Source: Squalus acanthias
Taxonomy: Eukaryota
Reading direction: 5' to 3'
Assembly (NCBI GenBank): GCA_030390025.1
Contig: CM059431.1
Span: 155,498,001-155,562,000, forward strand
Length of the DNA: 64,000 nt
Below, piece by piece: positions 3,001 to 56,044 of the stretch (position 1 is the first letter of the stretch; each line of letters begins with the position of its first letter). The position numbers and the translations under genes were made by a program. The notes below the pieces were generated by a model, which saw only the letters and a program-made list of their open reading frames with translations, was not told the origin of the DNA and did no database searches.

Positions 3001-4330
3001 TCCTGCCCCAGTACTGGTGCCAGTGTCCCAGGAAGCAAAACCCATTTATCCCACACCAGTCTTTGAGCCACTCATTTAACTCTCTAATTTTATTTGCTCT
3101 AGCCAAATTCGCTCGTGGCTCAGGTAATAATCCAGAGATTAATACCCTTGAGGTTCTGTTTTTCAATTTGACCCCTAGCTGCTCATACTCCTTTAACAGA
3201 ACCTGCTTCCTTGTCCTATCTACCGTTTGTACCAACATGGAGCACGACAACTGGAGCCACCCCCTCCCACTGCATGTTTCTTTCCAGAGAAGATGTCCTT
3301 AACCCTGGCACCGGGCAGGCAACACAGCCTACGGGACTCTCGTCTCGGCTGCAGAAAACTCTATCTATCCCCCTAATAATATTATCCCCTACCACAACAA
3401 AATTTCTATTTACTTCCCCCTCTTGAATGGTCCCCCGTTCCACGGTGCTGTGGCCAGGTTGCTCATCCTCCCTGCAGTCTCTGCTCCCGTCCCCACAGGG
3501 AGTCAGAACCTCGAACCAGTTGGACAAGAGCAAGGGTTGCGGCTCCTCCAACACGACCTCCTGGATCCCCGTACCTGCCTCACTCGTAGTCAAACCGTCC
3601 TGTCCCTGACCATGGCCTACATCTGAATTAATTAACTTCATAGATGTGACCACCTCCTGAAACACAAAGTCCAGTTACTTCTTCCCCCACCCTGATGTGT
3701 CGCAGTTTCTGAAGGTCAGACTCCAGCTCATCAATACGGAGCTGGAGTACCTGTAGCAGCAGACACTTGTCACAGATGTAATCACCGTGAGCCTCAATGG
3801 GGTGCACCGCCTGCCACATCTCGCAACAGTAACACATCACCTGCTCCATTCTATGTAATGTTTTTTTTTATTGTTAGTTATGGACACTCTCTGACCGATT
3901 ATAGTTGCTAGTATCCCCTCTAATTAATTGGATTTAAATTAAATCAATCCCTCTAAATTACACCAGTTAAATGGTTTACCAACTCTACACCAGAAAGGCC
4001 TTATTAACTACAACCCGCAGAGTTTAAGTTTAAAAAGCGAGAAATATTTACCTGCATTCTGGTGACGTCACACCTCGATTATTTTTACCTCTCTCCCTCC
4101 CTCCGAGTTCGGAGACTGGTCCCGCCTTACCTGTTCTCTGGAGCCTTTTAAACCCTTTGCCGCCGCCTCGCCTCACGGAGGTCCGCCGCCGCAACAGGAA
4201 GCTGACAATGATTGAAAAAGGAAGGCACACCTCCCTCCCCGAACTCCCTCACTCACCAAACTCGCAGCTTAGCACTCTGTTCCAAATCTGCACTCTGTGA
4301 CAAACTGCACTCTAGTCTCCCTTATTTATG
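1..4330 (-). mobile_element. Decayed near-full-length CR1 LINE; 3' end runs off the window; lies in an NLR intron
   Basis: Frameshifted ORF2 pieces (155-703, 948-1214, 1412-1648, 1668-2327) and ORF1 pieces (2903-3849; CxxC finger, HVGTN, DGLHL) closely resemble the intact copy at 42.7-46.7 kb. Confidence 0.95.
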
Positions 4331-4390
4331 CTGCTGAGATTTAAATAAGTGAGCTCTCTGGCAGTTACACAACCAGAACCAGAAACATAT

Positions 4391-6447
4391 AAGGAATGAT
4401 TCAAAATAGAAATCTATAAGTTTGGGTAACACCATAATAATATAATTCTTTGTCTACAAGGCGTTCGTTGTCTTGCACAAAATAATGGAAAAGTGTTGGA
4501 AGAAGAGTTATAAAGACAAATTGGAGATAATGCAGAAATAACAGTAACAGTGATTGGTGACTGTAAATATTCAAAGTAAAGAAGTAACTTAAGTGACGAA
4601 GGTAGGCCTTGGTGTCTGAAGCTTGTCCAGGACATTATTCAGCTGGCTAAAATTTTGGACGACAAGAAAGGATTGAGCATTTCATCTATTTCTAGAAATG
4701 GGCAGGGGCTACTCTGTGAGGTAACGGTAGTGAAACATCTACCAATGTTATCGTTTATATGCTCATATGTTAGTTTTCATATAAATTATAAAATGTTTCG
4801 TTACAATCAAAACAATAATTATGTAAAAGGAATAAATCTAATGTCAACGAGGCTGACATATTAGCTCAGTTATATTGAGGCGGATATGATCAAATAATAT
4901 CCTTGGTAGGAAATAAGAAGATAGACAATATAGGATTCCCATACAAGATACACAAATCACATGGGGAATGAAAGCACTGCAGGACAGTCAAAAATTACTT
5001 GAGCTTGCAGAGATAATGAAATAAACAATAGATTTAAAATTGAATGTACGAGTGTAGGGCTAGTTATATAAAACAAATGAAGGAAGCCTGGCGAATATAG
5101 TGAACATTTAATCGATGAATCCGTGGACGGTGACAGAGTTCGAGACAATGATCATATTCCATATACACTTCAAGGAAAAAAGTTAAACAAAGAAAAGAGC
5201 TGTGTAGAGATGAAATGGGAATGGTTCATACAGAGGACGAGGGATTCACTGAAAAGTTATTGGTACTGTTTCGATGAATTAACGTGATACTTGGAATGAA
5301 TGATAAACTCATTGAAGTCAATAGAAAAGAAAGTCTGACGCGAGTAAAACTGGGCTGCCAATTTGCTTCCGGCAGTTTCACCCAATTGGCCAACACTGGC
5401 CAACACCTTGTGACCCATTTTTTATGGTTGTCAACCAGTGCAATCTGGGTTTCTAAAAAACTAACTGTAAGCTTTCAAAAATATTATGATCCTTAACTAC
5501 CAATAATTATTGGTTTTGATCGTACCTTATACCTGTAACCATAGCTTTGTGCTCTGATTGTGTACTTTACCCTTTTCCTTCAATCAGTTCCTGGTTATAA
5601 TGAGAGAAAGACCAGTTGCCCTGGGTGTCTCAAAGCTGCTACTTTCTATCTCTGTAACCTCTTCCAATCCTACAGCCTGTCAAGATCCAGGCGCTGGTCC
5701 AATTCTTACCTCTTGTGCATTCCCCATTTCCATCGCTCCACCATTGACGGGCTTGCCTTAAGCGGTTTAGCACCTAAGCTCTGGAATTCACTCCCCTATC
5801 CACTATGAATCTCTAACTCTCTCTTCTCTAAGACTCTCTTTAAATCTACTCTGTGACCAAGCTTTGGTCACCTGTCCTGATATCTTCCTCTGATGCTTGG
5901 TGTTACATTTTGTTTGATAACACTCCCTTTGCAAAGCTTTGGGACGTTTTACTACGCTAGTTCTTGTTGTTTCTACTAAATTCTCATTGCAGGCACGCCT
6001 CCTGTCTGACTAATGGCGTATCTTCCTTTTATTCGATTATGGGATCTGGGCGTCGCTGGCAAGGATAGCATTTGTTGCCCGTCCCTTAATTGTTTTCTGC
6101 ATTAACTCCCGATTCTGAGCGTTTCATCGCTCTCCTAAGGAAAGCTAGAAATAGTAAAGACTTTTCTTATCCGAGTTTGTACATTACTTCTCTATATATG
6201 ATTGCAATATACATTCTTGTTAGGAAATCAGATCCCTAGCTGAATGTCACCGCAAAAGCGATGCTTCCCAACTTATTGTCGATACCGTGCTGGAAAAGGG
6301 AGCTCGGGGAGAAAGAACAATGTGGAACATATTACTTCAACTGCAGAATACCAAACCCAAGCTGAAAATGACATTGTCAGATATACAGAGTAGATTTACA
6401 GAGGGAGAAAGTGATCTCGAAGGTTAGTGGTATCCAAATCTAATTTT
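4391..6447 (+). repeat. Segmental duplicate, copy A (intron plus CARD-like exon)
   Basis: Colinear with 12935-14970 from 'aaggaatgattcaaaatagaaa' to 'tggtatcc.aatctaatttt'. Contains very old CR1 and L2-tail remnants. Confidence 0.95.
6224..6422 (+). CDS. NLR exon: C-terminal half of CARD/death-fold-like module 1 (EIRSLAECHRKSDASQLIVDTVLEKGARGERTMWNILLQLQNTKPKLKMTLSDIQSRFTEGESDLE)
   Basis: ttgttag acceptor, gttagt donor, 199 nt open (phase 0 to 1). Amphipathic helices resemble the N-terminal domain of chondrichthyan NLRs (recognised from memory, not searched). Confidence 0.8.
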
Positions 6448-6489
6448 CCGTTAGAATAACAAAGTTTCATTTAAGGTGAGATTTTTATT

Positions 6490-6895
6490 TTATTATTTTC
6501 AGGGATGTGGGCGTCACTGGCAAGGCCAGCATTTATTGCCCATCCTTACCTGCACTTGCGAAGCTGTTGGGTATCCGCTTTGCTGAAACGCTGCAGTCTA
6601 TGTGGTGAAGGTACTCCCACAATGTTGTTGGAGAAAGAGTGCCATGAGTTTGACACAGCGACAATGAAGGAAAGCGATATACTTTAAAGTTAGGATGGTG
6701 TGGGAGTTGGAGGGGAAAATGGAAGTAGTGGTGTTCCCTGGCGCTTGCTTTTCTTGTCCTTCTAGGCGGTAGATCCCGTGGATTTGGGAGGTGACGTCGA
6801 AGAAGCCTTGACGAGTTGACGCAGTGCATCGTGTAGATGGAACACTCTGCAGCCACGGTGTGGCAGTGGGGAAGTGACTGAATGCTACTAATTGA
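6490..6895 (-). mobile_element. 3' fragment of an L2/Crack-like LINE
   Basis: ORF 6533-6856 (IYTMHC...RLLRRHLPNPR) plus the common tail 'gggatgtgggcgtcactggcaaggccagcatttattgcccatcc'. Clade assignment is tentative. Confidence 0.65.
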
Positions 6896-7485
6896 TACAT
6901 GCTTGTATGAGTTTTATACTCGATTCCTTAAATGAAATTTGGCACTTCCCCTTGTAAATTTCAGCTTGGACAGAGACATCTACTCCGATTCAAATTCACC
7001 CTTAGTTCCACGGTTCCGTGATTCCCACATTAACTGACCTACATTGATTCCTTATCCCATATTGATCAATTGTGAAATGCTCCTGCTCATCCTAAAAGCC
7101 CTCCCAACGTTATCTCTGAAGTCGTCTTCACTTCACCTCATATACATTCTTGTCCGTCCTCTACCCTTGCTGTGATCTCCAGTGTACCAGTTCAACTGCT
7201 CCCGACTCCAGGCAGATCTCGTTCACACCAACTGGAACTCAGTTCCTATGAGCTTCCATCTCTGTACGTCTTAATATTTTAAGTATCGACCACATGTTGC
7301 AAGGCCTGGTTCGTTCTCGTAACTCCAGCAAAGCATGTCTGCGTTAATTCTGAGTTCCACCTCTGTAAGTCTCCACTGGCAGTGTCACCGCTAAACAACT
7401 GCTGTCGCGATAGCAGTTAGTTCAGAGTATTCACTGTTTCATAGCGGGCATTTATGTTAATCTGTTCTCATTTACACTTTCAAAG

Positions 7486-7655
7486 ATAATGCAGTTACTG
7501 AACTATCACTAACGTTGGCAAGCTACACGGATTTCCAGCTGCGCAGAGTTATCGTTTGCTACCGTCAGAGACTAGAACAGTCAATTGAAGAATTCGTGGA
7601 GGCCGTTAGCCAGTCGCTTGTAGATGCAAACGTATTTACTGAAACAGATCATAAG
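7486..7655 (+). CDS. NLR exon: N-terminal half of CARD/death-fold-like module 2 (DNAVTELSLTLASYTDFQLRRVIVCYRQRLEQSIEEFVEAVSQSLVDANVFTETDHK)
   Basis: tttcaaag acceptor, gtatgt donor, 170 nt open (phase 1 to 0), phase-compatible with both flanking exons. Contains a 'DFQL...YRxRLEQxIEE.V..VS' motif as recalled from shark NLRs. Confidence 0.8.
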
Positions 7656-7718
7656 GTATGTTTCATATATGTTCGATTCGTATGGTGTTAAATGAGTCAA
7701 ACGATTGACTGTTTATGG

Positions 7719-10700
7719 TCATAGAGTCATAGAGTTACAACACAGAAAGAGGCCCTTCGGCCCATCGTGTCCGGCGCCGGCCATCAAGCCCTGTCTATTC
7801 TTATCCCATTTTCCAGCACTTTGTCCGTATCCTTGTATGCCACGGCGTTTCAAGTGCTCATCTAAAGGCTTCTTGATTGTTGTGAGGGTTCCTGCCTCTA
7901 CCACCCTTTCAGTCTGTGAGTTCCAGTTTCCAACCACCCTCTGGGTGAAAAACATTTTCCTCAAATCCCCTCTAAACCTCCTGCCACTTTCCTTGAATCT
8001 ATGCTCCCTTGTTATTGACCCCTCTACTAAGGGGAAAAGTTCATTTCTATCTACCCTATTTATTCCCCTCATAATTTTATACACCCCAATCAGGTGCCCC
8101 CTCAGCCTTCTCTGCTCTAAGGAAAACAACCGCAGCCTGTCCAGTCGCTCTTCATAGCTGTAGCACTGCTACCCAGGTAACATCCTGGTGAATCTCCTGT
8201 GCACCCTCTCCAATGCAATCACATCCTTCCTATAGTGTGGCGACCAGAACTGCACACAGTATTCTAGCTGTGGCCTAACTGGCGTTTTGTACAGCTCCAT
8301 CATAACCTCCCTGCTCTTATATTCTATGTCTCGGCTAATGAATGCAAGTATCCCTTTTGCCTTCTTAACCACGTTATCTAACTGTCCTGCTGCATTCAGG
8401 GATCTATGTACATGCACACGAAGTTCCCACTGATCCTCTGTCCTTCCTAGATTCCTAACATTCATTGTTTATTCCCTTGCCTTGTTAGTCCTCCCAAAAT
8501 GCATGACCTCACACTTTTCTAGGTTAAATTCCATTTGCTACGTTCTGCCCATCTGACCAACCCGTCTATATCGTCCTGTAGCCTGAGGTTACCTCCTCGC
8601 TATTTACCACCCAACCAATTTACGTGTCATCTGCGAACTTACTGATCATACCTCCTACATTCATATCTGAATCATTAATGTATACTACAAACAGCAAAGG
8701 ACCCAGCACCGATCCCTGCGGTACACCACTGGGCACAGTCTTCCAGTCCCAAAAACAACCTTCGACCATCACCCTCTGCCTCCTGCCAACAAGCCAATTT
8801 GCCATCCAATGTGCCAAGTTGCCCTGGATCCCATGGGCTCTTACCTTCTTGATCAGGCTCCCATGCGGGACTGTGTCAAAAAATTTACTGAAGTCCATGA
8901 AGCCACGTCAACTGCACTACCCTGAACCACACACCTAGTCATCCCCTCCAAAATGCAATCAAATTGGTCAGACATGAACTCCCCCTGACAAAGCAATGCT
9001 GACTATTCTTGATTAATCTTTGCCTCTCCAAGTGGAGACTAATTCTGTTCCTCAAAATGTTTTCCAATAATTTCGCTACCACTGATGTTAGGCTCAGTGG
9101 CCTATAATTCCCTTGTTTATCCCTACTACCCTTCTTGAGTAATGGTACTACGTTAGCTGTTCTCCAGTCCTCTGGCACCTCCCCTGTAGCCAGAGAGGTT
9201 CTGAAAATGTATGTCATAGCCCCTGCAAGCTCCTTCCTTGCCTCACACAGCAGCCTGGGATACATCTCGTCTGGGAGTTGGGATTTATCCACTTTTAAGC
9301 TCGCTAAAACCGCTAGTACCTCCTCCCTCTTAATACTAATTTGTTCAAGTATATCACAATCCCCCTGTCTGATTTCTATGCATACATTGTCCTTCTCCAT
9401 GGTGAACACAGATGCAAAATATTCATTTACAACCCCACCTACATCTGCTGGATCTAAACACAGATTGCCACTTTGATCCCTCATGGGCCCTACTCTTTCC
9501 CTAGTTATCCTCTTGCCCTTAATATACATATAAAACTCCTTGGGATTTTCCTTTATTTTGCCCGCCAGTGTTATTTCATGCCCACTTTTCGCTCTCCTAA
9601 TTTCTTTTTTAATTACCCCCATGCACTTTCTATACTCCTCTATGGTTTCCACTGTTTTTAGTCATTTGGATCTGCCAAAAGCCTCCCTTTTTTCCGACTC
9701 CATTCTCGTATATCACTTGACATCCAGGGTTCCCTTGGTTTATTGGTCCCACCCTTGACCTTTAAGGGAACACGTTGCCGTTGTACTCTCTCTATTTCCT
9801 TTCTGAAAAACTCCCACTGCTCTGATGTGGATTTTCCTACAAGTAGCTGATCCTAGTCCACTTTATCCAGATCCTGCCTTATCCTGTTAAAATCGGGCTT
9901 CCCCTAATTTAGAATCTTTATTTCCGGTCCATCTTTGTCCTTTTCCATGACTACCTTAAATCTCACTGAATTATGGTCACTGTCATCAAAATGCTCTCCT
10001 ACTAACACTTCTACCAATTGCCCGGCTACATTCCCTAGAATTAGGTCCAGTACCGCCCCCTCTCTTGTAGGACTTCCTACATGCTGGCTCAAAAAGCTCT
10101 CCTGGATGCACTTTAAGAATTTCGCACCCTCTAAGCCTTTCACACTGTAACTATCCCAGTTAATATTGGGGAAGTTGAAATCCCCTCCTATTATTACCCT
10201 ATTCTTTCCAAACTTCTATGAGATTTGCCTACATATCTGTACATCTATCTCCCGCTGACTGATTGGGGGCCAATGGTGCACTCACAACAAAGTGCTTGCC
10301 CCCTTTTTGATTTTATGTTCTACCCATATGGCCTCATCAGTGGAACCTGCTAAGATATCATCCCTCCTTACAGCAGTAATTGACTCCTTGATTGATATTT
10401 CGACACCCCCTCCTCTTTTACATTCCACTCTGTCTCGCCTGAGGATTCTGTACCCCGGAATATTGAGCTGCCAGTCCTGCCCCTCCCTCAACCATGTCTC
10501 TGTGATAGCAACAATATCGTACTCCCATGTGTTTATCAACAACTTCAATTCATCAACCTGACTCGCAAGACACCTTGCATTAAAATAAATGCCTTACAGC
10601 CTTGCTGTGCCTTTCAGGGTGACTTGTTTTTTTCTCTATAGTTGGATGTGCATCACCCCCTACTATCCTTCCACTCCGTATTCCACCCCCCTGCTAAGTT

Positions 10701-11640
10701 AGTTTAAGCACCCCCCCACCCCCCACCCCTGCAACAGTACTACAAATCTTCCCGCAAGTGTGTTGGTCCCATTCCAGTTCAGGTGCAACCCGTCTGACTT
10801 TTACAGGTCCCACCTTCCCCAGAAGCAGACCCAGTGATCCAGGAAACTAAAGCCCTTCCTCGTGCACCAACTCTTTAGCCACGCATTCATCTGCTCTATC
10901 CTCCTATTCCTATAATCACTAGCACGTGGCACCGGGAGTAATCCAGATATTACTACCTTTGATGGCCTGCTTTTTAATCTGCTACCTAACTCCCTAAATT
11001 CTGGTTGCAGGACCTCATCCCTCTTTCTACCCATGTCGTTGGTACCAATGTGAACCAGGACCTCTGACTGTTCGCACTCCCCCTTCAGAATGCCCTGCAG
11101 CCTTTCAGTGACATGCTTGACTCTGGCACCAGGGAGGCAACATACCATCCTGGAGTCTCGTCTGCGGCCACAGAAACGTCTAGCTGTTCCCTTTACGATA
11201 GAATTCCCTATCACTACTGCTCTCCCACTCGTTTCCCTCCCCTCCTGTGCAACTGAGCCACTCGTAGTGCCACGGACTTGGCTCTTGCTGCATTCTCCTG
11301 AGAAACCATCTCCCCCATCAGTATCCAAAAACGGAAAATCTGTCGGTGAGGGAGATGGACCTAGGGGACTTCTGCAGTACCTTCCTAGTTATTTTACTCT
11401 GTGTGATGGTCACCCATTCCCTGTCTGCCTGTGCAATCTTTACCTGCGGTGTGACCACCTTGTTATCCAAGAGGATCTCAGCTTCGCGGATTCTCCACAG
11501 TCACTCCAGCCGCAGCTCCAGCTCCTAAACGCGGATTTCGATTAGCTGCAGCTGGAGACATTCATGCACATGTGCTCGCCCTGGACACCTAAAGTGTCCC
11601 TGACTTCCAACATAGCACAGGAGGAGCACTCCACGCTGTT
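7719..11640 (-). mobile_element. Decayed CR1 LINE (second family) with ORF1 esterase, ORF2 EN/RT and 3' tail; intronic
   Basis: ORF pieces with ITETWL, PQGSVLGP, FADDT, HIGTND; tail repeat 'tcatagagtcatagag' at 7719. Confidence 0.93.
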
Positions 11641-11869
11641 TAGATAGAGAGTATTCTGTGCAAACCAACGATATAAGCAGTACATTAGGCTGTACTGGTT
11701 TAACTTCAGTCGACAATCTGAAATTAATGTCCTGTGCCAGTGATTTGAAATACTCTTCTGAGATATCACTGTTAAATAAATTTTTCATGAATTGTCAATG
11801 CATGCATTCATAATAAGAGAACAGTACCTCATAGACGAACCGTGATTTTTTAATAGCAGCCTTCTGTGC

Positions 11870-12180
11870 CCAATTTTCGTCGGCTTCTTCATCAATGACC
11901 TTCCTTCAAAAGGTCAGAGTTGGGTCTATTCGCTAATGATTGCACAATGTTTAGTTCCGTTCGCAATTCCTCAGAAAATGAAGCAGTCCATGCCCGCACG
12001 CAGCATGACCGGACAACATCCAGGTTTGGGCCGATAAGTGACAGTTAACATTTATGCCACGTAAGATTCAGGTGCTGGCTAATTGCAACTAGAGAAAGTC
12101 TAACCGATTACCATTGACATTCAATGGCTTTACCTTCGGCGTTTTACCACCATGAGTGTCCCGGTGATCACCACTAAAAC
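11870..12180 (+). mobile_element. Old L2/Crack-like LINE RT fragment
   Basis: Degenerate FIND...FANDCT (YADD region) coding remnant. Confidence 0.55.
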
Positions 12181-13027
12181 CAGCTTTGAGAATTTCCTGC
12201 CAAATCTCTAAAAGTTAACGTTATTCCAGATTCTCGAAATGAGTAATTGAATAAGACAAAAAATGCAGCGCAAGCAACACACTTCATCATTACAGCCCAA
12301 TGGACAACCAGGTGCTAAGTCAAAACTGTTATAATCACATAATTCAAATCTCATGTGAATAAGTTAACTGACACATACAAAATTAACAGTATGACATTTC
12401 CTACATTCACAGCCGAGATGCTCTGCCCATTCTCCATCAAAACGGATGGGCGTTTCGAATTGGATTGAGCCATTGCCGGTGGTGCGGCCTGACCAATTTC
12501 TGCTGAACATATCCAATTAGTTTCTTCCATTCTACATCTTGCTAAGTCCCACCACTACCTCGGCCCAAAACTCAGGGACGTCAACACACCTAGCAGCTCC
12601 CGAGGCCACATCATTAATGCCAAAATGTTGCATTTCATAAAATAACCCTAGTCTAATCTATGCTGTTTATCTGTTCCCTTTCTCCAATACGTCCTCACTT
12701 ATGTAACACAAATATAAAGAGACATATTACTGTGAATAAAGCTGGGAAGTTAAAGGTACAGTTTGTCTGACGGTATGATATAATGATGTGATCGACGTGT
12801 CTTTTATAAGGGTAGGAATGGGAGATGAATTGTGCTCTGTTACCTGAAGTTCATGGAAAATTAAGTTGTATGCAAATAGGGAGCAATCATTAGTAATAGA
12901 TTCAGTTGCAGAATTGTATCTTAAGGAATGATATAAGGAATGATTCAAAATAGAAAAGTTTGGGGTAACACCATCATAACATAACTCTTTGTCGATAAGG
13001 CGTTCGTTGTCTTACACAAAATAATGG

Positions 13028-13245
13028 GAAGTCTCACAACACCAGTTTAGAGTGCAGCAGCTTTATTTGAAATAACAATGTTTCGGAGGGCTGCTTCTAC
13101 GTCAGGTGAAGATGACTTCACCTGACGACGGAGCAGCGCTCCGACTGCTTGTGATTTCAAATAAAATTGTTGGACTATAACCTGATGTTGTGTGACTTCT
13201 CATTTTTGTCCACCCCAGTCCAACACCGGCATCTCCGCATCATGG
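13028..13245. mobile_element. Short palindromic Penelope-type (inverted pseudo-LTR) insertion with 12-bp target-site duplication
   Basis: Inverted arms span 13028-13199. 'acaaaataatgg' is duplicated at 13016-13027 and 13246-13257 but single at the paralogous site 4477-4488. Degenerate CTGACGA-stem-GAAA cores on both strands. Confidence 0.8.
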
Positions 13246-14746
13246 ACAAAATAATGGAAAAGTGATGGAAAAAGAGTTATAAAGACAAATTGGAGATAAT
13301 GCAGCAAAAACAGTAACAGTGATTGGTGACTATAAATATCCAAAGTACAGAAGTAACCGAAGAGGGGAAGGGAGGCCGTGGTGTCTGAAGCTTGTCCAGG
13401 ACATTATTCAGCAGGCTACAATTTCGGACGACAAGAAAGGATTGAGCAATTCATCTATTTCTAGAATGGGGAGGGGTTAGTAGGTGAGGTAACGGTAGTG
13501 AAACATCTACCAATGTTATCGTTCATATGTTCATATGTTAGTATTAATATGAATTATAAAATGGTTCGTTACAATCAAAACATTAAGTTTGTTAAAGGAA
13601 TAAATATAATTTCAACGAGACTGACATATTAGCTCAGTTATATTGAGGCGGATATGATCAGATAATATCGTGGGTAGGCAATAGGAAGATAGGTAAAATA
13701 AGTTTCCCATACAAGATACACAATTCACACAGGAATGAAAGCAGTGCAGGGCAGACAAGAATTACATTTGCTTGCAGAGAAAATGAAATAAACAATAGAT
13801 TTAAAATTGAATGTAGGAGTTTAGGGCTAGTTATGTAAAACAAATGAAAAAAGCCTGGGTAATAGAGTGAACAGTTAATAGATGAATTAGTGGCCGGTGA
13901 CAGAGGTCGAGACAATGATCATATTCCATAAACACTTCAAGGAAAAGAGTTACACAAAGAAAATAGCTGTGTAGAGATGAAATGGGAATGGTTCACAGAG
14001 AGGACGAAGGATTCACTGAAAAGCTATTGGTACTGTTCTGAAAATTAACGTGATAATTGGAATTAATGAAAAACTCATTGAAGTCAATGGAAAAGAAATT
14101 CAGACGCGAGTATAACTGGGCTGCCAATTCGCTTCAGCGCGTTTGACTCAATTTGACTCAATTGGCCAACACTGCCGACACCTTGTGACCCATTCTTTAT
14201 GGTTGACAGCTTGTGCAATCTGAGTTTCTAAAAAATGTATTGTTAGCTTTCAAAAATATTAAGGTCCTTAATTACCAATAATTATTGGTTTAGACCCTGA
14301 ACTCTGGAATTCCCTCCAGAAACCACATGGAATCTCTATCTCTCTCTTTTCTAAGACTCTCTTTAAATCTACTCTGTGACCAAGCTTTGGTCAACTGTCC
14401 TAATATCTTCCTCTGATGCTTGGTGTTACATTTTGTTTGATAACACTCCCTTTGCAACGAATTGGGACGTTTAACTACGCTAGTTCTTGTTGTTTCTGCT
14501 TAATTCTCATTGCAGGCACGCCTCCTGTCTGACTAATGGCGTATCTTCCTTTTATTCGCTAATGGGATCTGGGCGTCGCTGGCAATGACAGCATTTATTG
14601 CTCATCCCTTATTTGTTTCCTGCATTAACTCCCGATTCTGATCGTTTCATCTCTCTCCTAATGAAAGCCAGAAATAGATAAGACGTTTCATATCCGAGTT
14701 TGTACATTACTTCTCTGTATATGATTGCAATATACATTCTTGTTAG

Positions 14747-14945
14747 GAAATCGGATCCCTAGCTGAATGTCACCGCAGAAGCGATGCTTCCCAACTCATT
14801 TTCGATACCGTGCTGGAAAAGGGAGCTCGGGGAGAAAGAAAAATGTGGATCATATTACTTCAACTGCAGAAAACAAAACCCAAGCTGAAAATGACATTGT
14901 CAGAGATACAGAATAGATGTACAGAGGGAGAAAGTGATCTCGAAG
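14747..14945 (+). CDS. NLR exon: C-terminal half of CARD/death-fold-like module 2 (paralogue of 6224-6422)
   Basis: ttgttag acceptor, gttggt donor, 199 nt open, 11 substitutions and no indels versus 6224-6422. Confidence 0.8.
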
Positions 14946-15000
14946 GTTGGTGGTATCCTAATCTAATTTTTATTCGTTTCTGATATGTGGGCATCGCTGG

Positions 15001-15721
15001 AATTTGGGGAGGAGATAGCAGAAGAGCTTGCCATAAGTTTCCAATCTTCGCTAAATGCGGGGGAGGTGCCTGAGGATTGGAAAGTGGCAAATGTGTCACC
15101 ATTGTTCAAGAACGGGTGTAAGGACAATCCTGGTATCTACAGGCCGGTCAGTTTAAGATCAGTGTTGGGTTCAGTTTTAGAAACAATAAAGAAGTAAAAA
15201 AGTAACGGGCACGTGGGGAGGTTTAAGCCTATATATATATATATATATATCAAAAACTGCAGTGGCCCCAGCACTGACCCTTGGGAAAAAGGACTGTCTA
15301 CCATCCTCCAGTCTGAAAAACATCCATTTACTACAAATCGCAGTTTTCTCTCCTTAAGCCAATTTTCTCTCCTTAAGCAGCATCCTATGTTTTTGCCTCA
15401 CCCCAAGTTTGATGTCTTCGGTAAATTTAGAAATTCTACTCTGTATTCCAATATCAAGGTCATTTATATATATATATATACAGAGTAGAATTTCTAAATT
15501 TGCCGAAGACACCAAACTTGGGGTGAGGCAAAAACATAGGATGCTGCCCATCGACTGCAACATGAGATAGATAGGCTAGCAGAATGGGCAGGGAAGTGGC
15601 AGATGGAATTTAATACAGATAATTGTGAGGTGATGCATTTTGTTAGAAGGAAAAGTGAGAGGCAATATCCACTTAATGACACTGTTTTAAAGAGGGTGCA
15701 GGGACAGGGAACTGGGAGGTA
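15001..15721. mobile_element. Rearranged old CR1 RT fragments with an inverted duplication
   Basis: CR1 peptide pieces on both strands. ~69-bp inverted arms at 15377-15445 and 15479-15547 around (TA)n. Confidence 0.8.
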
Positions 15722-18650
15722 CGTATGGGTATGATCTTGTGGCCATTACAGAAACATGGCTGCTGGGTGACAACGACTGGGAATTAGATATGCCAGGGTA
15801 TTTAACAATCAGGAAGGACAGGCAGGAAGGAAGGGGAGGTGGGGTGACTATGTTAATAAAGGAAGGAATTACTGTAACACAGAGAAATGTTATTGGGTCA
15901 AAGGATCAGGATAATGAAGCAGTTTGGGTGGAGATAAGGAATAATAAGGGGAAAAAAACAATAGTGGGAGTAGTATATAGGCCTCCTAATAGTTGCAAAT
16001 CTGATGCAAGAAGTATTAATCAGGAAATAGTTGGGGCATGTAATAAGGGAACAGCTAAAATTATGGGGGATTTTAACTATCATATTAACTGGACAAATCA
16101 AATTGGGCAGGGCAGCCTTGAGGAAGAGTTTATTGAGTGTATTCGGGATGGATTTCTTGAGCAGTATGTAACTGATCCTACAAGGGGGTAAGCAACCTTA
16201 TACCTGGTCCTGTGTAATGAGTCAGTATTAATTAATAATGTCCTAGTTAAGGATCCGCTTGGAATGAGTGACCATAACATGGTTGAATTCCATATCCAAT
16301 TAGAGGTTGAGAAGGTTGGTTCTCAAACAAGCGTACTGAGCTTGAATAAAGGAGACTATGATGGTATGAGAGCGGAATTGATTAAAGTGGACTGGGAAAA
16401 TAGATTAAAGGGTAAGACGGTACATGAGCAGTGGAGTTCATTTAAGGAAAAATTTTAGAACTTTCAAAAAATATATATTGCACTGAGGAAAAAAGGGTGT
16501 AAAAGAAATGACAGCCATCCGTGGCTAAGTAAAGAAATTAAGAATATTATCCGACTAAAAACAAGGACATATAAGGTAGCCAAACTTAGTGGGAGGATAG
16601 AAGATTGGGAAGTCTTCAAAAGACAGCAAAAAGTAACTAAAGGATTGATTAAGAAAGGGAAGATAGATTATGAAAATAAATTAGCAAAAAATATAAAAAA
16701 CAGATAGCAAGAGTTTCTATAGTTATATAAAAAGTAAAACGGTGGCTAAGGCAAACGTACGTCCCTTAGAGCATGAGACCGGAAAATTAATGGTGGGAAA
16801 CATGGAGATGGCAAAAATGCTGAACAAATATTTTGTTTCAGTCTTTACGGTAGAGGACACTAAGAATATCCCAACACTGGACAAACAGGGGGCTCTAGGG
16901 GGGGAGGAGCTAAATACGATTAAAATCACTAAGGAATTGGTACTCAGTAAAATAATGGGACTCAAGGCGTATAAATCCCCTGGAACTGATGGCTTACATC
17001 CTAGGGTCTTGAGGGAAGTGGCAGTAGGGATTGTGAATGCTTTGGTAATAATTTTCCAAAATTCACTGGACTCAGCAAAGGTCCTGGCAGATTTGAAAAC
17101 TGCTAATGTAACACCCTTATTTAAAAAAGGTAGTATGCAGAAGGCTGGAAATTATAGTTAAGTTAGCCTAACATCTGTGGTGGGTAAAATTTTGGATTCT
17201 ATTATTAAGGAGACAATAACGGAAGATTTCGATAAACATAATTTAATAGGACAAAGTCAGCATAGCTTTATGAAGGGGAAGTCATGTCTGACAAATTTGC
17301 TTGAGTTCTTTGAGGACAGAACGTACAGAATGGATAAAGGGGGAACCGTTAACGTAGTGTATTTAGACTTCCAGAAGGCTTCCGACAAGGTGCCACATAA
17401 AATATTATTGCTCAAGATAAACAATCACTTGATTGGGGGTAATATTCTGACATGGGTGGAGGATTGGTTATCTAACAGGAAGCAGAGATTTGGGATAAAT
17501 GGTTCATTCTCGGACTGGCAACTAGTGGTGTTCTGCAGGGCTCGGTGCTGGGTCCCCAACTCTTTACAATCTATATTAACGATTTGGAGGAGGGGACCGA
17601 GTGTAACATATTAAAGTTTGCAGATGATACAGAGATGGGAGAGAAAGTTGAAAGTGAGGAGAACATAAAAAACCTACAAGGGGATATAGACAGGCTGGGT
17701 GAGTGGGCGGAGATTTGGCAGATGCAATACAATAGCGGAAAATGTGAGGTTATGCAATTTCGCAGGAAAATCAGAGAGCAAGTTATTATCTTAATGGCGA
17801 GAAACTGGAAAGTACTGTAGTACAAAGGGATCTGGGGGTCCTAGTGCAAGAAAATCTAAAAAATTAGTATGCAGGTGCAGCAGGTGATCAAGAAGGCCAA
17901 CGGAATCTTGGCTTTTATTTCGAGGGGGATAGATTACAAAAACAGGGAGGTATTGCTGCAGTTATATACGGTATTGGTGAGACCGCACCTGGAATACTGC
18001 ATACAGTTTTGGTGTCCATACTTAAGAAAATACATACTTGCTCTCGAGGCAGTACAAAGAAGTTTCACTCGGTTAATCCCGGGGATGAGGGGGTGGACAT
18101 ATGAGGAGATGTTGTGCAGATTGGGACTCTACTCATTGAAGTTCAGAAGAATGAGAGGCGATCTTATTGAAATATATAAGATTGTGAAGGGGCTTGATCG
18201 GGTGGATGCGGTAAGGATGTTCCCAAGGGTGGGTGAAACTAGAACTAGGGGGCATAATCTTAGAATAAGGGGCTGCTCTTTCAAAACTGAGATGAGGAGA
18301 AACTTCTTCACTCAGAGGGTAGTAGGTCTGTGGAATTTGCTGCCCCAGGAAGCTGTGGAAGCTACTTCATTAAATACATTTAAAACAGAAATTGACAGTT
18401 TCCTAGAAATAAAGGGCATTAGGGGCTACGGGGAGCGGGCAGGAAATTGGACATGAGGTTCAGTTCGGATCGGTCAGTGCCCTGTGGGTGGCGCAGCGTG
18501 CCCAGGGGCTGAGTGGCCAAGTCCTTCTCCTACTTCTTGTTTTCTTTAGATTTGAGGTGCCGATCAGATCAGCCATTATCTTAATGAATGGCGGAGCAGG
18601 GCGAGGGGCCGATTGGCCTACTCCTGCTCCTATTTCTTATGTTCTTATGT
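15722..18650 (+). mobile_element. 5'-truncated decayed CR1 ORF2 copy nested in an older CR1
   Basis: ORF pieces 15739-18456 are homologous to ORF2 at 42726-45677. Ends in 'ttcttatgttcttatgt'. Host CR1 resumes at 18651. Confidence 0.93.
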
Positions 18651-19342
18651 AATGCACATAGGTCCCTGAAGTTGGCAGGAGATATTGAGTGATTGGTTCG
18701 CAAAGCATATGGGATCTTGGGGCTGCATAAATAGAGGTACTGAGTACAAAGGTAGAGATGTTATACTGAACCTTTATAATGCGCTGGTTAGGCCACAACT
18801 GGAGTATTGCGTCCAGTCGTCGTCATCACACTTTAGGAAGGACATCAATGCCCTTGAGAGGGTTCAGAGGAGATTTGCCAGAATGGTTCCGGGGATGGAG
18901 TATCTTAGGTACGAGGACAGTTTGGAGCAGCTGGATTTGTTTTCATTAGAGCAAAGGAGGTTGAGGGGTGATTTGATAGATGTGTGTAAGATCATGACGG
19001 GTTTGGATAGGCTAGACGAGGAAAGGAATGTCCCACTAGTGGATGGTACAAGTACAAGGGGACACAGATATAATGTTTTCGGCAAGATATACAGTGGGGG
19101 GGAGGGGCGGAGCGGGTGTGAGGAAAAATATTTTTACGCAGCGAATGTTGAGGACCTGAAACTCGCTGTTGAGGAAGTGTTGGAAGCGGACACGCTCAAT
19201 GTTTTCAAGGGGAGACTGGATAGGTACTTCAGGCAAATAAACTTGCAGGGTTACGGGGATAGAGCGGGGGAATGGACTGACTCGATTGCTCTACAGAGTG
19301 TCGGCACTGACTCGATGGGCCGAATGGCCTCCTTCTGTGCCG
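18651..19342 (+). mobile_element. 3' part of the older host CR1
   Basis: ORF 18685-19362 with LVRPQLEYCVQ and RRLRGDLI; tail 'tgactctgactctgtgac'. Confidence 0.88.
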
Positions 19343-19705
19343 TTATGACTCTGACTCTGTGACATAAAATACCAGCAATTTACCAAGATTTACTTTTGCA
19401 ATTGATTTCGAAGTTTTAAAATCTTCATTGCTAGAAGCTCAAAATCCAACAGCAAACAGCCCACAAACCTCAACCTTGCTTCATGAAATATTTTCCTGGT
19501 ACTTCAGAAATTCTATCAGTATTTTTTTATCAGTGAGTGTCTAGGCATTAACGTGCAAAAAGTAAATAAGGGATTACTCATTGCTGAGAAACTTTTAACA
19601 TTTTTAAATTTTCTTGACGATAAGTTTCTCCTTCATAACACTGATCTGTTAAATATGTTTCTCCTTATTACAATGACTACACCAATGACGTTGTTCGTAT
19701 TCAAG

Positions 19706-21425
19706 AGATAGAATTAAAGCACAAAGACACTCTCCGCAAACAGAATGAGAAAATAACAGTCAAATCCACTGTAGGAAAAGAAAGATCTCGAAGATGTTTT
19801 CTGGATGAAAAGTATACTAAAGTAACGATTGTTGCTTCCCTGCGTGAGCGGAGACTGGTAGAAAATGAATTGAAGGCCCGAGGTAGAGAGCGTGAAGAAT
19901 TACAGAGGAAAAACATCGAGAATGAGCTGGAAGAGATTCAGCTGAATCAGTTGCTGAGTTTAGCTAAAACAGGCAATTCTGGGACAACCGTGGTAATTGG
20001 GTCCTCGGGGATTGGGAAAAGCACCATGATACAGAAGATAATCCGGGATTGGGCAGCAGGGAAAATATACAAACAGTTTAAAGTTGTCTTTCCTTTTAAA
20101 GTTCGACAATTGAATTTAATAAATGGAAAAACATGTCTAAATAGCCTGATCCTGGATTCCTACCCCGATTTCGAAAATGAGTTGAAACTTCTGTGGAAAG
20201 AACCCGGAAACATATTATTTATATTTGATGATTTAGACCAATTTGAAAAAAACATTGATTTCACCGATATTCAGAGAAACAACGACCCCCAATATCAGTG
20301 CTTCGATCCCGAGGGCTGCAATGAAGTGTTAGACATCGTGCGCTGCCTCATACAGGGACATTTACTGAAAGGCTGCTCAGTGCTGATCACAAGCCGGCCG
20401 TGGAAACTGGAGTCTCTGGGAAAGGCAAATATAATTCCAACGGTCGAAGTTCTGGGTTTCAACTCTGAGAAAATAAAGCAATACTTCGGCCGTTATTTTG
20501 GAGATGGCCATTTTGCCACAGTTGTAATCGAGTACATTGAGCAGAATGAGACATTGTCCACCATGTGCTATAACCCGCTGTACTGCTCGGTCCTCGCTTC
20601 ATTATTAGAGTCACACCGGACAGAAGGAGCGCAGGAGAGTCCATTGTCCGTCACAACCAGCACAAAGGTGTTCTCCGCTTACGTCACAAGACTTCTAGAG
20701 AGAGGTGGCTGTGACGCGGAAACTTCTCGCGACATATGGCTGAAATTGGGCGAGTTAGCCTACCAGGGAGTTTGCAACAAAACCGTTTTGATTATGACAG
20801 ACCAATTCAATCGCCACATCATCACACTTTCCAATCTTATCTGTGCGTTTATGATGGAGATTCCAGACAAAGACATGTGTACTGTTGTCTACACATTCAC
20901 TCACTCCGTTATGCAGGACTTTGTCGCTGCTCTTGCGAAAAGTCTAAGTACAGCAGGACTTGGACTGACACGATTGCTCGATAACGGATACACGTGCGCT
21001 GACGACAGATTTAGGACATTTTCACGGTTTCTCGTTGGTCTCTCCTCACGGCATTCAACGGATCAGCTTGAGCGGAAATTAGGTCAATTTCCTTCTGAAG
21101 CAATCCCTTGTGTGTCGGATTGGCTGAAAAAAAATGTCGAAAAACGCGTTACACACTTAGAAGATGGGCAAACCCAAAGGACGTTCTTACAGATATTGGA
21201 TTATTTCCGTGAATTCGGAGATACAAACCTGAAGATGGCCGCGTTAACACCGATTAAGAAGGCCATTTTCACAAAATGTCGTCTTAAACCTTTTGAATGT
21301 GCGATTCTTTCAACGATGTTAGTGGCCGTTGAACTCATAGAAGAGCTGAATCTGGACACTTGCCGGGTTGAAGATGAAGGGATCCGTCAGCTGGAGCCCA
21401 TGCTGCACAAATGTAAAATACTCAG
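19706..21425 (+). CDS. NLR large exon: FISNA-like region, NACHT, HD1/WHD/HD2 and first LRR (NLRC3-like/NLRP-like receptor)
   Basis: Frame is open upstream of the tracked ORF, back to acceptor ttcaag (phase 1). Walker A GSSGIGKST, Walker B ILFIFDDLDQ, sensor 1 VLITSRP, CYNPLYC, FTHSVMQDFVAA. Donor CTCAG|gtattg. The exact acceptor is less certain than the donor. Confidence 0.93.
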
Positions 21426-22936
21426 GTATTGCGCAGAAATAGTTACATCAACTCTTTCACTGGCATGTGTGATATTATTATTTAAGTGAAAAGCAAAAAG
21501 ACATTATCCATTCGAACAGTTAATGAGCACATTCACTCATTCGCCTCTCTGCTGTGCTCAATGGAACGGTAAGAGACGGCGCCTATGTGTCTGTTCCGTA
21601 GATACCTGTAAGTGCTGGAATGCTCATTTAAATAGATCGGTTTGGGTGTTGACCACATTAAATTCGATGTTAACGCACTCATCGTACCACGTGAGAATCT
21701 AGATTAATCAGTGCGATATACTCCCCTCACCTTGACCATCATATATTACATCTCTGTTGGGAATAAAACACAATTTCAAAGAAATGTATAGCACAAAAGG
21801 ATTACATTCGGCCCATCGTGGACATACCGGGTCTTCCAAACAGCTTTCTAATTAGTCCCGCTACCGTGCTCTTTCCCCATAGCCCTTGCAATTAGATCCC
21901 CTCCAAGTATTTAAACAATTCCCTTTCGAAAGTAACTATTAAATCTGTTTCCACTAGCCAGTCAGGCAGTACATTCTAAACCATAACAACTCGCTGCATC
22001 AAGCACATTCTCCTCATCTCACCTCTATTTTTTTTGCCAATTAACTTAAAATTGTGTCCTCCAGCAACTGATCCACCTGCCATCGGCACCTTGTCATTAA
22101 GAAAATATTTGGCTTTGTTTTAAACAATGACAATAAATGTTAAGGAAAACTGTTTTATTTGGCAGTTTGATTAAATTACAAGTGAGTTATTACCGTCCTG
22201 TTAGAAAGTTCCCAATTATTCGATCATACCGGATTTGCCTACTCAATACCTTGTTGTTGAGCTCAATTATGCCAATTGTGACAGTTAGATTTGGGTTCGT
22301 CTCTGCGAATCCTAAAACTCTGAATACACTTTCCAGCGGCACAGTTACGTTAAGGCATTATCAGCGGCCGAGAGGAAAGGAATATGCGACAGAATATCAC
22401 TCCACCTGTTATTAGGCATATTCGATTGATGTGTTATAAATCCCCCTCAGTCGATTGTCCAATAAACTTCTCAGAAATTTCTTCTTGTTTTGGCATGAAG
22501 TGCATTTTTAACCTCAGTGCATCAAAAAGATACTTCTCCTACAATAGAGACAAGGTCGGAGGTACGGTCCCTATATTTACCCCAAATGTATTCTTTTATT
22601 AAAGAGAAGCACCCCTGAGAGACATTTGTACTGCATTCCTCTTCGTTACAGACCACCCGTTTACAGCATTTAACCTGTTTACATGTAACCGTTTTATAAC
22701 GTGTGGTTAAATTTTGACCTCGGACATTAAAGTTACTTCCGGTTTACTGTTTTTACCACATATGATATTTGCAATTAACTTAATGAAAATCACAGAATTG
22801 CATTTAAATTACGGGTCTTATATTAGAGTTTTTATGGTCCAACGTGTCCCACGTTAAATATATCACTTAATCGACAAAATTTCCTGTCTGCCGCATTATT
22901 CCATATTCATTAATCATGTTATTTATTTGTTTTTAG

Positions 22937-23023
22937 ACTCAATGAAAATAAACTGGGAGATTCGGGAGTGATACGGCTCTCTGCAGTTCTAAAGAAAAAT
23001 GATTGTAAAATACAGAGACTCGA
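22937..23023 (+). CDS. NLR LRR exon (RLNENKLGDSGVIRLSAVLKKNDCKIQRLE)
   Basis: 87 nt, phase 2-2, tttttag acceptor and gtgagt donor; RI-like LRR consensus NxLGDSGV. Confidence 0.92.
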
Positions 23024-23298
23024 GTGAGTAATTTTGAAAAAAATTCGTACAGCACCACGAGAGAGTTATTTATGTATAAAAATACGAATTACAGTGTTAA
23101 TGATAACCAGTCGATCTCACTGTTCAATTTACGTTAAAACGGAAGTAATTTAGAAAGGGTTCAGTATACATATATCATGAACAGGATTCCCCCCCGCCCA
23201 CCTTATTTTGGAATTCCAAAGTAATTTTTTGCATTTGTCAAAAATTTAACGTGCGTGTGTGTTTTGTATAATCTGTGTTTATGTTTCGATCTCTGAAG

Positions 23299-23490
23299 GT
23301 TAAAATCTAACGCTCTCACAGATGATTGTGTGCAAAGTCTTGTCTCTGCTCTCCGTATAAATGCTTCACTGAAGAAACTGGATCTGAGTAACGATAATCA
23401 GGATGGTGAACAGGCCAACAGATTGACTGACAATTCTGTTCTGTTATTGCGCAGTCTCATACAGAGTAGCGATACTCTCAAGGAAATCAG
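23299..23490 (+). CDS. NLR LRR exon (LKSNALTDDCVQSLVSALRINASLKKLDLSNDNQDGEQANRLTDNSVLLLRSLIQSSDTLKEIR)
   Basis: 192 nt, phase 2-2, AG/GT boundaries, two RI-like LRRs. Confidence 0.9.
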
Positions 23491-23736
23491 GTGATTTTTT
23501 TTCCTGTTTAACTATTAATTATTTAAATTTTCTTTCACGTGTAAAATACATTTTCATATTTTTACTTTAATAAATGGACTTGTAATGTAAAATATATCGT
23601 CATTATTTTGCGGAGAATATATCTCCTCCATACGATTAAACACAAATATTTTGAATGAATCTCACAATATCGCTACTCATAGTGAACAGAATAAAACTCA
23701 TTGATAACAATTTTCTTTATGTTAATATTTTTACAG

Positions 23737-23824
23737 ATTGATACGCAATCAGCACATTGCAGAAGAAAAACAAATTCTGAAGTCAATCAATGTATCGGAT
23801 CACTTCACTGTAATTAAAGAATGA
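23737..23824 (+). CDS. NLR terminal exon (LIRNQHIAEEKQILKSINVSDHFTVIKE*)
   Basis: tttttacag acceptor, phase 2, LxxN start, TGA at 23822-23824. Confidence 0.8.
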
Positions 23825-23936
23825 AGGATTGTTTACGATGAAGATTGTTTTATGTAAATATCCTAATTATATTTTGGGTTATACTCTATATAATGTAACC
23901 AATTTTGAACATGATTTCGGGACGTGCGCTAGAGGA

Positions 23937-42192: not shown

Positions 42193-42725
42193 ATCTGATC
42201 TAGTTTCTCCAGATAACTGAAACCCATCATCCCTGGTACTATTCTAATAAATCGTATCTACATTCTCTCCAAGGCATTTACGTCCTTTCTAAGGTATGGC
42301 GCCATAATTGGACATTATGATCTAACTGAGCTCTAGAAAATGATTCATAAGGTTTTAGCATCAATTACTTGCTTTTGTAATCTATACCTCTATTTACAAA
42401 GCAAAGGACCCCTTTATTTTTTTAACAGATTGATTCACTTTCCTGCCTCCTTCAAACATTTGTGTATGCAAACCCCGAGGTCTTTATAACATAACATAAG
42501 AACATAAGAAATAGGAGCAGGAGTAGGCCAATCGGCCCCTCGAGCCTGCTCCGCCATTCAATAAGATCATGGCTGATCTGATCCTAACCGCCAATCTACT
42601 ATCTATCACAGAACCATCTCCTGCATCTAACAGAATTGCACACACGAAATAGGAGCAGAATCAGGCTACACAGTCCCTGGGCCCGCTCCACTACCCACAG
42701 GGCCATGACCGATCCGAACCTAGAC

Positions 42726-45677: not shown

Positions 45678-45715
45678 TTTTATTTTTTGCTCTCTTGAAA
45701 CCTCCCCCCCACTAA

Positions 45716-56031: not shown

Positions 56032-56044
56032 CAATTAATTTTCA

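What the first reader, a model, noticed from the sequence alone, without database searches (positions are those of the whole stretch)
6224..23824. Hidden multi-exon NLR with tandem CARD-like modules built by intragenic exon duplication
Seen: three small open exons among intronic LINEs splice in phase (0-1, 1-0, 0-1) to the NACHT exon. Two of them are paralogues inside a ~2-kb duplicated block. Each two-exon module is phase 1-1 symmetric, so it can be duplicated without a frameshift. Known: NOD2 has tandem CARDs, and fish NLR-C receptors vary their N-terminal effector domains. Inference: a lineage-specific receptor with at least 2 death-fold modules, arisen independently of NOD2, with more modules possible upstream. 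This is my best candidate for an undescribed system.
Basis: partly seen in the sequence, partly recalled or inferred. Interest (0 to 1): 0.8.

Follow-up and report, generated by a model that had tools for sequence, protein, structure and literature searches.

The report
Shark NLR with duplicated CARD exons
The window holds an open-framed shark-type innate immune sensor gene (NLR) whose two-exon signalling unit, predicted to fold as a CARD domain, was recently duplicated so that the protein likely carries two CARDs in a row, a layout that also recurs in automatic gene models of other sharks and rays.

Summary
The exons, phases and duplicated block are real. Seven exons (6224-23824) join into an 884-residue open frame: half a module, one whole module, NACHT, short LRR tail. 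Only 1.5 modules lie in the window; the first module's front exon would lie beyond a LINE that runs off the left edge, so 'two CARDs' is inferred. Two relatives' modules (50% and 60% identical) are predicted to fold as CARDs. Spliced contigs of 83-90% identity (paralogues, same species label) use the predicted intron inside the module, and one runs A-B-A; splicing at this locus is untested. The gene belongs to the NLRP-related expansion described in whale shark, not to NOD2. It is not unique: 9 of 162 module-bearing proteins retrieved carry tandem modules, in seven shark and ray genera, and this scan noted the family earlier in this genome (up to 17 modules; unchecked). Its subclade has a changed Walker B motif (26 of 27 relatives) and often a predicted N-terminal membrane helix (12 of 27); no such exon is in the window. 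I found neither feature nor tandem CARDs for this family in the papers searched. Verdict: a real, modest example of an under-described variant.

The parts
6224..6422 (+). Exon A: C-terminal half of the upstream CARD module (phase 0-1); its partner exon is not in the window
   Evidence: profile positions 57-113, 58.9 bits; acceptor position matches the spliced joint in paralogous contigs
7486..7655 (+). Exon B: N-terminal half of the NACHT-proximal CARD module (phase 1-0)
   Evidence: positions 5-56, 55.0 bits; donor position matches the spliced joint in paralogous contigs
14747..14945 (+). Exon A': C-terminal half of the NACHT-proximal CARD module (phase 0-1); 94.5% identical to exon A
   Evidence: B+A' scores 119.8 bits over positions 5-113
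19706..21425 (+). Large exon: NACHT, winged helix, HD2 and first LRR; Walker A intact, Walker B of the subclade type (DDLDQ)
   Evidence: Pfam NACHT E 5e-33, NOD2_WH 2.7e-6, NLRC4_HD2 7.3e-7 (below cut-off); motifs; 55-61% identity to Heterodontus models
22937..23023 (+). LRR exon 1 (87 nt)
   Evidence: matched by 54 relatives in tblastn
23299..23490 (+). LRR exon 2 (192 nt)
   Evidence: matched by 53 relatives
23737..23824 (+). Last coding exon with stop codon; AATAAA at 23937
   Evidence: similar to the ends of subclade relatives
4387..6447 (+). Duplicated block, first copy (intron plus exon A); left edge set by a LINE
12931..14970 (+). Duplicated block, second copy (intron plus exon A')
1..4386 (-). 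LINE (CR1-like, label recalled) that interrupts the first copy and runs off the window; about 300 more bases expected if full length
   Evidence: 91% identity of 1-3859 to the copy at 42799-46682

Best explanation
This is an open-framed elasmobranch NLR gene of the NLRP-related family whose two-exon module, predicted to be a CARD, was likely duplicated by unequal crossing-over inside the gene, so that the protein would read CARD-CARD-NACHT-short LRR and would signal as an oligomeric platform that recruits a CARD-bearing partner. Shown: the exons, their phases, the open frame, the recent duplicate of exon A, and family membership. Predicted: the CARD fold (on relatives). Inferred: an unseen B-type exon at least about 1.6 kb left of the window completes the first CARD, and A splices to B at this locus. 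From established NLR biology (NLRC4, NLRP1, NOD1/2; recalled and PMC2323615): a trigger opens the NACHT, it oligomerises, and the clustered CARDs nucleate a CARD partner, most likely caspase-1-like or ASC given the NLRP kinship; a second CARD would raise avidity. The subclade's Walker B (acidic residue restored at +1, extended glutamate lost) likely means slower or differently catalysed ATP turnover.
For: Open 884-residue frame, canonical splice ends; open frame by chance 3 of 20,000. Fold: P0022 module pLDDT 91.8, top VIA rows CARDs at Z 11.7-11.1, rmsd 1.4-3.1, 80-102 aligned, first death domain at rank 33 with Z 8.4; P0108 module 2 (60% identical to B+A') best Z 12.3, rmsd 1.9, 96 aligned to SP100 CARD; Pfam CARD weak in 9 of 21 rows, best E 1e-4. 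Paralogous contigs join B end to A start at 7653/6222 with 3 ambiguous letters, equal to 7655/6224 (2 contigs each in X1 and X2; a looser one in X3), and one 383-nt contig in X1 and X2 runs A-B-A. The A-to-B linker has the same length as the first tandem junction of P0085 (counted). No NACHT exon lies between A and B. Tandem modules in 9 of 162 module-bearing proteins. NACHT nearest NLRP3 (E 1e-39). P0038 is on the whale-shark expansion list.
Against: The first module's B exon is not in the window. A versus A' shows no purifying signal: 9 non-synonymous and 2 synonymous changes, pN 0.058 against pS 0.047; the exon is no more conserved than the near intron (94.5 against 91.3%, p 0.20), though more than the far intron (89.2%, p 0.02); power is low. 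The contigs are 83-90% identical, so they speak for the family and not this locus; they come from one study, and the letters across their A-to-B joint are not given (at most 42, against 51 in the window model). Foldseek gave no match at E 0.001 or better, and Z near 12 for a helical bundle is within the range the tool warns about; the case rests on CARDs filling nearly all top rows. In NLRP3 a G-to-E change at the +1 position blocked ASC specks, so the variant motif could mean poor signalling. No partner or ligand was tested.
Confidence: 0.6

Rival explanations
1. Exon A is an orphan: a duplicated half-module that is skipped or lacks an intact partner, and the gene makes an ordinary single-CARD NLR (B+A', NACHT, LRR).
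For: No partner exon in the window; the visible duplicated block holds only exon A; pN about equal to pS; single modules are the norm, 153 of 162. A alone starts inside helix H52-63 of the model and could not fold.
Against: Exon A keeps its frame and both splice ends; the block's left edge is a LINE insertion rather than a breakpoint; A-B-A contigs show that the family splices this way in this species label; linker length matches P0085.
Confidence: 0.2
2. The gene's unseen 5' end has a signal peptide and a membrane helix, making it a membrane-anchored NLR with its CARDs and NACHT on the cytosolic side. This can hold together with the best explanation.
For: 12 of 27 subclade relatives have a hydrophobic 19-residue segment before the NACHT exon, mostly followed by basic residues, against 0 of 24 other chondrichthyan models. 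The window's modules group weakly (0.78-0.83) with modules of P0085 and P0108, which carry such a segment. One paralogous contig has 943 nt ahead of its B-like part.
Against: No exon for a membrane helix found in 1-19700 by homology or by a scan of open phase 1-1 candidates. The models are automatic and not independent; 15 of 27 show no such segment, 9 of them with N-termini under 80 residues. The test was a hydropathy window, not a topology predictor.
Confidence: 0.25
3. The protein is made but works as a damper or decoy: its ATPase site is altered and its LRR short, so the CARDs sequester partners instead of activating them.
For: Walker B is DDLDQ. In human NLRP3, G303E cut hydrolysis 8.4-fold and abolished specks, and E306Q cut it to 0.22 (PMC9633759). 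The LRR tail after the NACHT exon is about 120 residues.
Against: The change is shared by the subclade across sharks and rays (D at +1 in 26 of 27) and restores the hhhhDD form of Apaf-1 (PMC2323615). Walker A, sensor-1 arginine and the winged-helix histidine are kept. E306Q alone made NLRP3 hyperactive. Short tails of about 115 residues also occur in relatives with the usual motif.
Confidence: 0.15
4. The duplicate is an assembly artefact, or the gene is a young silent copy in a birth-and-death cluster.
For: A dead NACHT copy lies 32 kb downstream; the region is rich in LINEs.
Against: The two blocks differ by 5-11% and have different insertions, which a false duplication would not give; all seven exons are open over 2,655 nt.
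Confidence: 0.07

Closest known systems
NLRP-related 'whale shark lineage-specific expansion' of Tan et al. 2021 (PMC8455134)
   Same: One listed member, XP_020370463 (P0038), has the same N-terminal module and 39% identity over the NACHT exon. It and the window gene fall in one chondrichthyan group in the FastTree run (0.97).
   Different: P0038 has one module and the usual DGLDE Walker B; the window gene lies in a long-branched subclade with a changed motif. The passages seen give no CARD, tandem or membrane layout for the family.
RefSeq models XP_078087540.1 (Mustelus asterias, P0084), XP_072354261.1 (Scyliorhinus torazame, P0085) and XP_078390056.1 (Cetorhinus maximus, P0108)
   Same: Same subclade (P0084, P0085), tandem copies of the same module (3, 5 and 2), similar junctions; P0108 module 2 is the closest match to B+A' (60%).
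   Different: Automatic, uncharacterised models. Their duplications are separate events from the window's. All three have a predicted membrane helix, which is not seen in the window.
NOD2 (CARD-CARD-NACHT-LRR)
   Same: Tandem CARDs in front of NACHT and LRR (PMC2323615).
   Different: The window's NACHT is much nearer NLRP3 (E 1e-39) than 5irm (E 1e-23; that 5irm is NOD2 is recalled). Sharks have a separate NOD2 orthologue. The window's modules are a recent pair, and its LRR is short.
Human NLRP3
   Same: Nearest solved NACHT; Walker A, sensor 1 and winged-helix histidine kept.
   Different: CARD-type fold instead of PYD; altered extended Walker B; far fewer LRRs.
Anthozoan putative membrane-bound NLRs (PMC3879445)
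   Same: Precedent for NLRs with N-terminal membrane segments, relevant to the subclade.
   Different: Three to four helices of a gap-junction-like domain in cnidarians, against one predicted helix in the shark models; none shown for the window gene.

Membership tests
NLR (NACHT-LRR) | NACHT domain with winged helix and HD2 | tested here: met
   Pfam NACHT 114.7 bits, NOD2_WH above cut-off, HD2 30.2 bits just under it
NLR (NACHT-LRR) | C-terminal LRRs | tested here: met
   Exons 22937-23490 match LRR exons of 53-54 relatives; Pfam found nothing on exon 23300-23488 alone
NLR (NACHT-LRR) | N-terminal death-fold effector domain | tested here: met
   B+A' 119.8 bits on the family profile; relatives' modules predicted as CARDs. 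The window's own joined module was not folded.
NLR (NACHT-LRR) | Extended Walker B hhhhD[GAS]hDE of most NLRs | tested here: not met
   DDLDQ in the window; D at +1 in 26 of 27 subclade relatives, 0 of 35 outside; final E in 6 of 27 against 35 of 35. Typical, not defining: human exceptions exist.
NLR (NACHT-LRR) | ATP-dependent oligomerisation and signalling | not testable with these tools
   needs protein work
NLRP-related expansion of Tan et al. 2021 | NACHT groups with the listed whale-shark members | tested here: met
   P0038 is XP_020370463, on the list; one group at 0.97 in FastTree. Only 1 of the 17 listed entries was traced, and the fast IQ-TREE run did not recover that group under a distant root.
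NOD2 | Two N-terminal CARDs | tested here: inconclusive
   1.5 modules in the window
NOD2 | NACHT orthologous to NOD2 | tested here: not met
   Best solved match NLRP3; none of the 81 hit rows is a NOD2 orthologue by closeness, one Heterodontus paralogue merely carries a 'NOD2-like' automatic name. No NOD2 sequence was in my trees.
NLRP subfamily | N-terminal PYD | tested here: not met
   CARDs rank far above the one PYD row (Z 12.3 against 6.8); no Pfam PYRIN among the 25 families shown
Teleost NLR-C | FISNA domain, often B30.2 | tested here: inconclusive
   No FISNA hit on the window exon; weak sub-threshold hits in some relatives; the frame ends after the LRRs with no room for B30.2
Membrane-anchored NLR | Signal peptide and membrane helix before the CARD/NACHT | tested here: inconclusive
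   None in the window; 5' end outside it; 12 of 27 subclade models have a candidate

The most novel reading that the evidence does not exclude
The gene belongs to an elasmobranch subclade of NLRs that are single-pass membrane proteins with a CARD cassette whose copy number expands freely by exon-pair duplication and an ATPase site rewired to an Apaf-1-like Walker B: a membrane-tethered, valency-tunable CARD platform not described for jawed vertebrates in the papers searched. This copy would be a two-or-more-CARD member whose membrane exon lies left of the window.
Probability: 0.2. Interest if true: 0.7.

Novelty: new variant of a known kind. Interest (0 to 1): 0.4.

Why it matters
Tan et al. 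(PMC8455134) found no NACHT-bearing NLRP orthologues in whale shark and suggested that this expanded family supplies inflammasome activators. Showing that its effector domain is a CARD hidden from Pfam, split over a symmetric exon pair and repeatedly multiplied gives a testable route: direct CARD-CARD recruitment without a PYD, with valency set by exon copy number. The subclade-wide Walker B change is a natural experiment on whether NLRs need the extended glutamate. This particular copy adds one small, recent duplication to that picture and is not the strongest example.

Tried and rejected
No whole genome is held, so the upstream B exon and 5' end could not be sought. No RNA holder listed for 19400-23900; the three runs offered were same-label additions. 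At 92% likeness they gave no cover over 19831-21621 and no joint at this locus's exons; at 80% the contigs on A and B all carried other letters. These blanks say nothing about expression. Pfam on single exons gave no CARD, only sub-threshold noise (Herpes_IE68, CoV_NSP15_M). Foldseek gave no row at E 0.001 or better, although CARDs led the list. The sequence-profile search of PDB gave weak CARD rows only (best E 0.03). The first module of P0108 was modelled poorly (pLDDT 33-69, shallow alignment) and was not used. The word-index search with the module missed many shark members (30 hits); the full-profile search replaced it. A scan for a membrane-helix exon found only LINE-derived candidates. 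Exon A as part of a separate upstream gene copy was rejected because no NACHT exon follows it before B; a remnant of such a copy falls under the orphan rival. The fast IQ-TREE run supported the subclade at 82.3 but was unstable at the root. Sequence look-ups of earlier findings returned nothing. No complex prediction was run. Paper searches showed no paper on tandem CARDs, membrane helices or the Walker B variant in shark NLRs; the library lacks most subscription journals, and supplementary files 13-24 of PMC8455134 were not searched.
Full report
Setting. The best protein matches of the large exon are shark 'NLRP3-like' models at 55-61% identity, so the window is inferred to be elasmobranch DNA. 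It is rich in LINE fragments. No whole genome is held, so nothing left of base 1 could be read.

Observation. I fixed the 3' exons at 22937-23023, 23299-23490 and 23737-23824. The seven exons give 2,655 nt and 884 residues with one stop at the end; an AATAAA follows at 23937. Shuffled A+B exons stay open in 3 of 20,000 trials. A and A' differ at 11 of 199 bases inside a duplicated block, 4387-6447 against 12931-14970. The block's left edge coincides with the 5' end of a LINE that fills 1-4386 and would run about 300 bases past the window if full length. A profile of the module built without window rows finds exactly A, B and A' in six frames. So the window shows one whole module (B+A') and the second half of another. 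By analogy with the second copy, where about 1.3 kb of unique intron (11640-12931) lies between the LINEs behind B and the block, a partner exon would be at least about 1.6 kb left of the window. That is inference.

What the module is. B+A' aligns without gaps to the N-terminal domain of many relatives. Pfam does not call it: CARD appears below cut-off in 9 of 21 rows. The window's own joined module was not folded; two relatives stood in. The P0022 module (50% identical) gave pLDDT 91.8, and the wide structure search put CARDs in nearly all of the first 32 rows (Z 11.7 to 8.6), with the first death domain at rank 33. P0108 module 2 (60% identical) gave the same picture, best Z 12.3, rmsd 1.9 over 96 residues. 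Foldseek led with CARDs but had no row at E 0.001 or better, and Z near 12 is middling for a helical bundle, so the call rests on the consistency of the lists. The intron falls inside helix H52-63 of the model, so exon A is useless without a B partner.

Splicing. Three runs with the same species label were offered, guessed by the tool to be RNA, one study, contigs only. Laid on 6200-7699 at 80% likeness, two contigs each in X1 and X2 join the end of B to the start of A at 7653/6222 with three ambiguous letters, which is the predicted 7655/6224 splice; X3 has one looser, low-depth contig. One 383-nt contig in X1 and in X2 has an A-like piece ending at 6389, then B from 7504, then A again. At most 42 letters lie between its A and B pieces, against 51 in the window model; they are not given. 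These contigs are 83-90% identical to the window, so they are most likely paralogues. They confirm the intron position inside the module and show a tandem arrangement in a transcript of the family. Splicing at this locus remains untested; the blanks are listed under Tried and rejected.

Is exon A used? For: open frame, intact splice ends, no NACHT exon between A and B, an A-to-B linker as long as the first tandem junction of P0085 (counted), and the A-B-A contig. Against: no partner in view, and no sign of purifying selection between A and A' (9 non-synonymous, 2 synonymous; pN 0.058, pS 0.047; exon 94.5% against 91.3% and 89.2% for two intron parts, p 0.20 and 0.02). With 11 differences the test is weak. 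I put inclusion at about two in three.

Family and spread. The module occurs in sharks, rays, chimaera, sturgeon, bichir, frogs and lizards. Of 244 proteins retrieved, 162 have a full module and 9 have tandem modules: Mustelus (3), Scyliorhinus (5, and an alternative model of probably the same gene), Hemitrygon (two models), Hypanus, Cetorhinus, Chiloscyllium and Stegostoma. Only three of the nine (P0084, P0085, P0107) also hold a NACHT in the same model. In a module tree the window's two modules are sisters (0.94), apart from the other tandem sets, so this duplication is its own recent event, while some P0085 and P0108 modules pair across orders. The whale-shark protein P0038 is XP_020370463, listed in the NLRP-related expansion of Tan et al. 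(PMC8455134; passages; supplementary file 11 read whole; files 13-24 not searched). Among solved structures the NACHT is nearest NLRP3.

The subclade. A NACHT tree of the window and 62 relatives (picked by hand from the 103 then held, each with more than 400 aligned residues) places the gene with 27 elasmobranch models on a long branch (0.83 in FastTree; 82.3 in a fast IQ-TREE run). Two features mark it. First, Walker B: the window reads DDLDQ; 26 of 27 relatives have D at +1 against 0 of 35 outside, and the final E is kept in 6 of 27 against 35 of 35. PMC2323615 (passages) describes the NLR form hhhhD[GAS]hDE and the hhhhDD form of Apaf-1. PMC9633759 (passages) reports that G303E lowers NLRP3 hydrolysis 8.4-fold and blocks specks, while E306Q lowers it to 0.22 and is hyperactive; the double change was not among the rows I saw. 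The effect here is therefore open. Second, 12 of 27 relatives have a hydrophobic 19-residue segment before the NACHT exon, mostly followed by basic residues, against 0 of 24 other chondrichthyan models. These are automatic models, related to each other, judged by hydropathy alone; a GPCR-fused model (P0086) was not in the tree or the count. No such exon was found in the window. PMC3879445 (passages) gives a cnidarian precedent for membrane-bound NLRs; PMC12436146 (passages) does not mention sharks.

Mechanism. The best-supported reading is a CARD-CARD-NACHT-LRR sensor that, like other NLRs (established knowledge), oligomerises on triggering and clusters its CARDs to recruit a CARD partner; caspase-1-like or ASC is my guess from the NLRP kinship. 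The symmetric exon pair explains why copy number can change without breaking the frame. Ligand, partner and ATPase activity are untested. Rivals are an orphan exon (0.2), a membrane-anchored form (0.25, compatible with the main reading), a decoy (0.15) and an artefact or silent copy (0.07).

Earlier notes of this scan describe the same family across several megabases of this genome, with up to 17 modules in one gene and membrane-helix variants. I had reached the tandem and membrane leads before reading them (note). I could not check the 17-module claim, and it is not used as support.

Novelty. Eight paper searches (listings only, except the five papers named above) showed no description of tandem CARDs, membrane helices or this Walker B in shark NLRs. 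The family is published and the tandem layout is present in public automatic models. I class it as a new variant of a known kind, with this locus a modest instance: interest 0.4.

Noticed in passing
window 55546-57127: Dead NACHT-exon copy with many stops and frameshifts; its part 55546-55795 is inverted and lies beside a palindromic element (55849-56031). It is nearer P0017/P0022 and reads the usual DGLDE motif, so it is of a different subclade from the main gene; no CARD exons near it.
   Followed up: partly
window 42490-47200 (- strand): Near full-length LINE with open frames of 1004 and 321 residues and a perfect 76-bp repeat (3.9 copies) at its 5' end; possibly young. CR1-like is a recalled label.
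   Followed up: no
window 37534-38900 and 40245-40610: Nested 27-bp and 187-bp tandem arrays.
   Followed up: no
window 13020-13207, 15377-15547, 55849-56031, 58593-58750: Short palindromic elements; the first interrupts the second copy of the duplicated block.
   Followed up: no
P0108 and P0008 (Cetorhinus maximus): Consecutive accessions on a contig of the same length: two CARDs plus a predicted membrane helix, then a partial CARD with NACHT. Probably one split gene laid out like P0085, which has four CARDs before and one after its hydrophobic segment.
   Followed up: partly
P0099, P0100, P0103 (Erpetoichthys): Reedfish models with Ig domains, a predicted membrane helix, the same CARD module and NACHT: a second, bony-fish case of a possibly membrane-anchored member, outside the shark subclade.
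   Followed up: no
P0112, P0139, P0097: Carpet-shark models with the module at the C-terminus after long repetitive regions; P0112 and P0139 have two modules and no NACHT.
   Followed up: no
P0084 (Mustelus asterias): Its three modules are almost identical (branch lengths under 0.05), so a very recent triplication or an assembly effect.
   Followed up: no
window 19706 and 19712: Two in-phase acceptor candidates for the NACHT exon, six bases apart (AAG and TAG).
   Followed up: no
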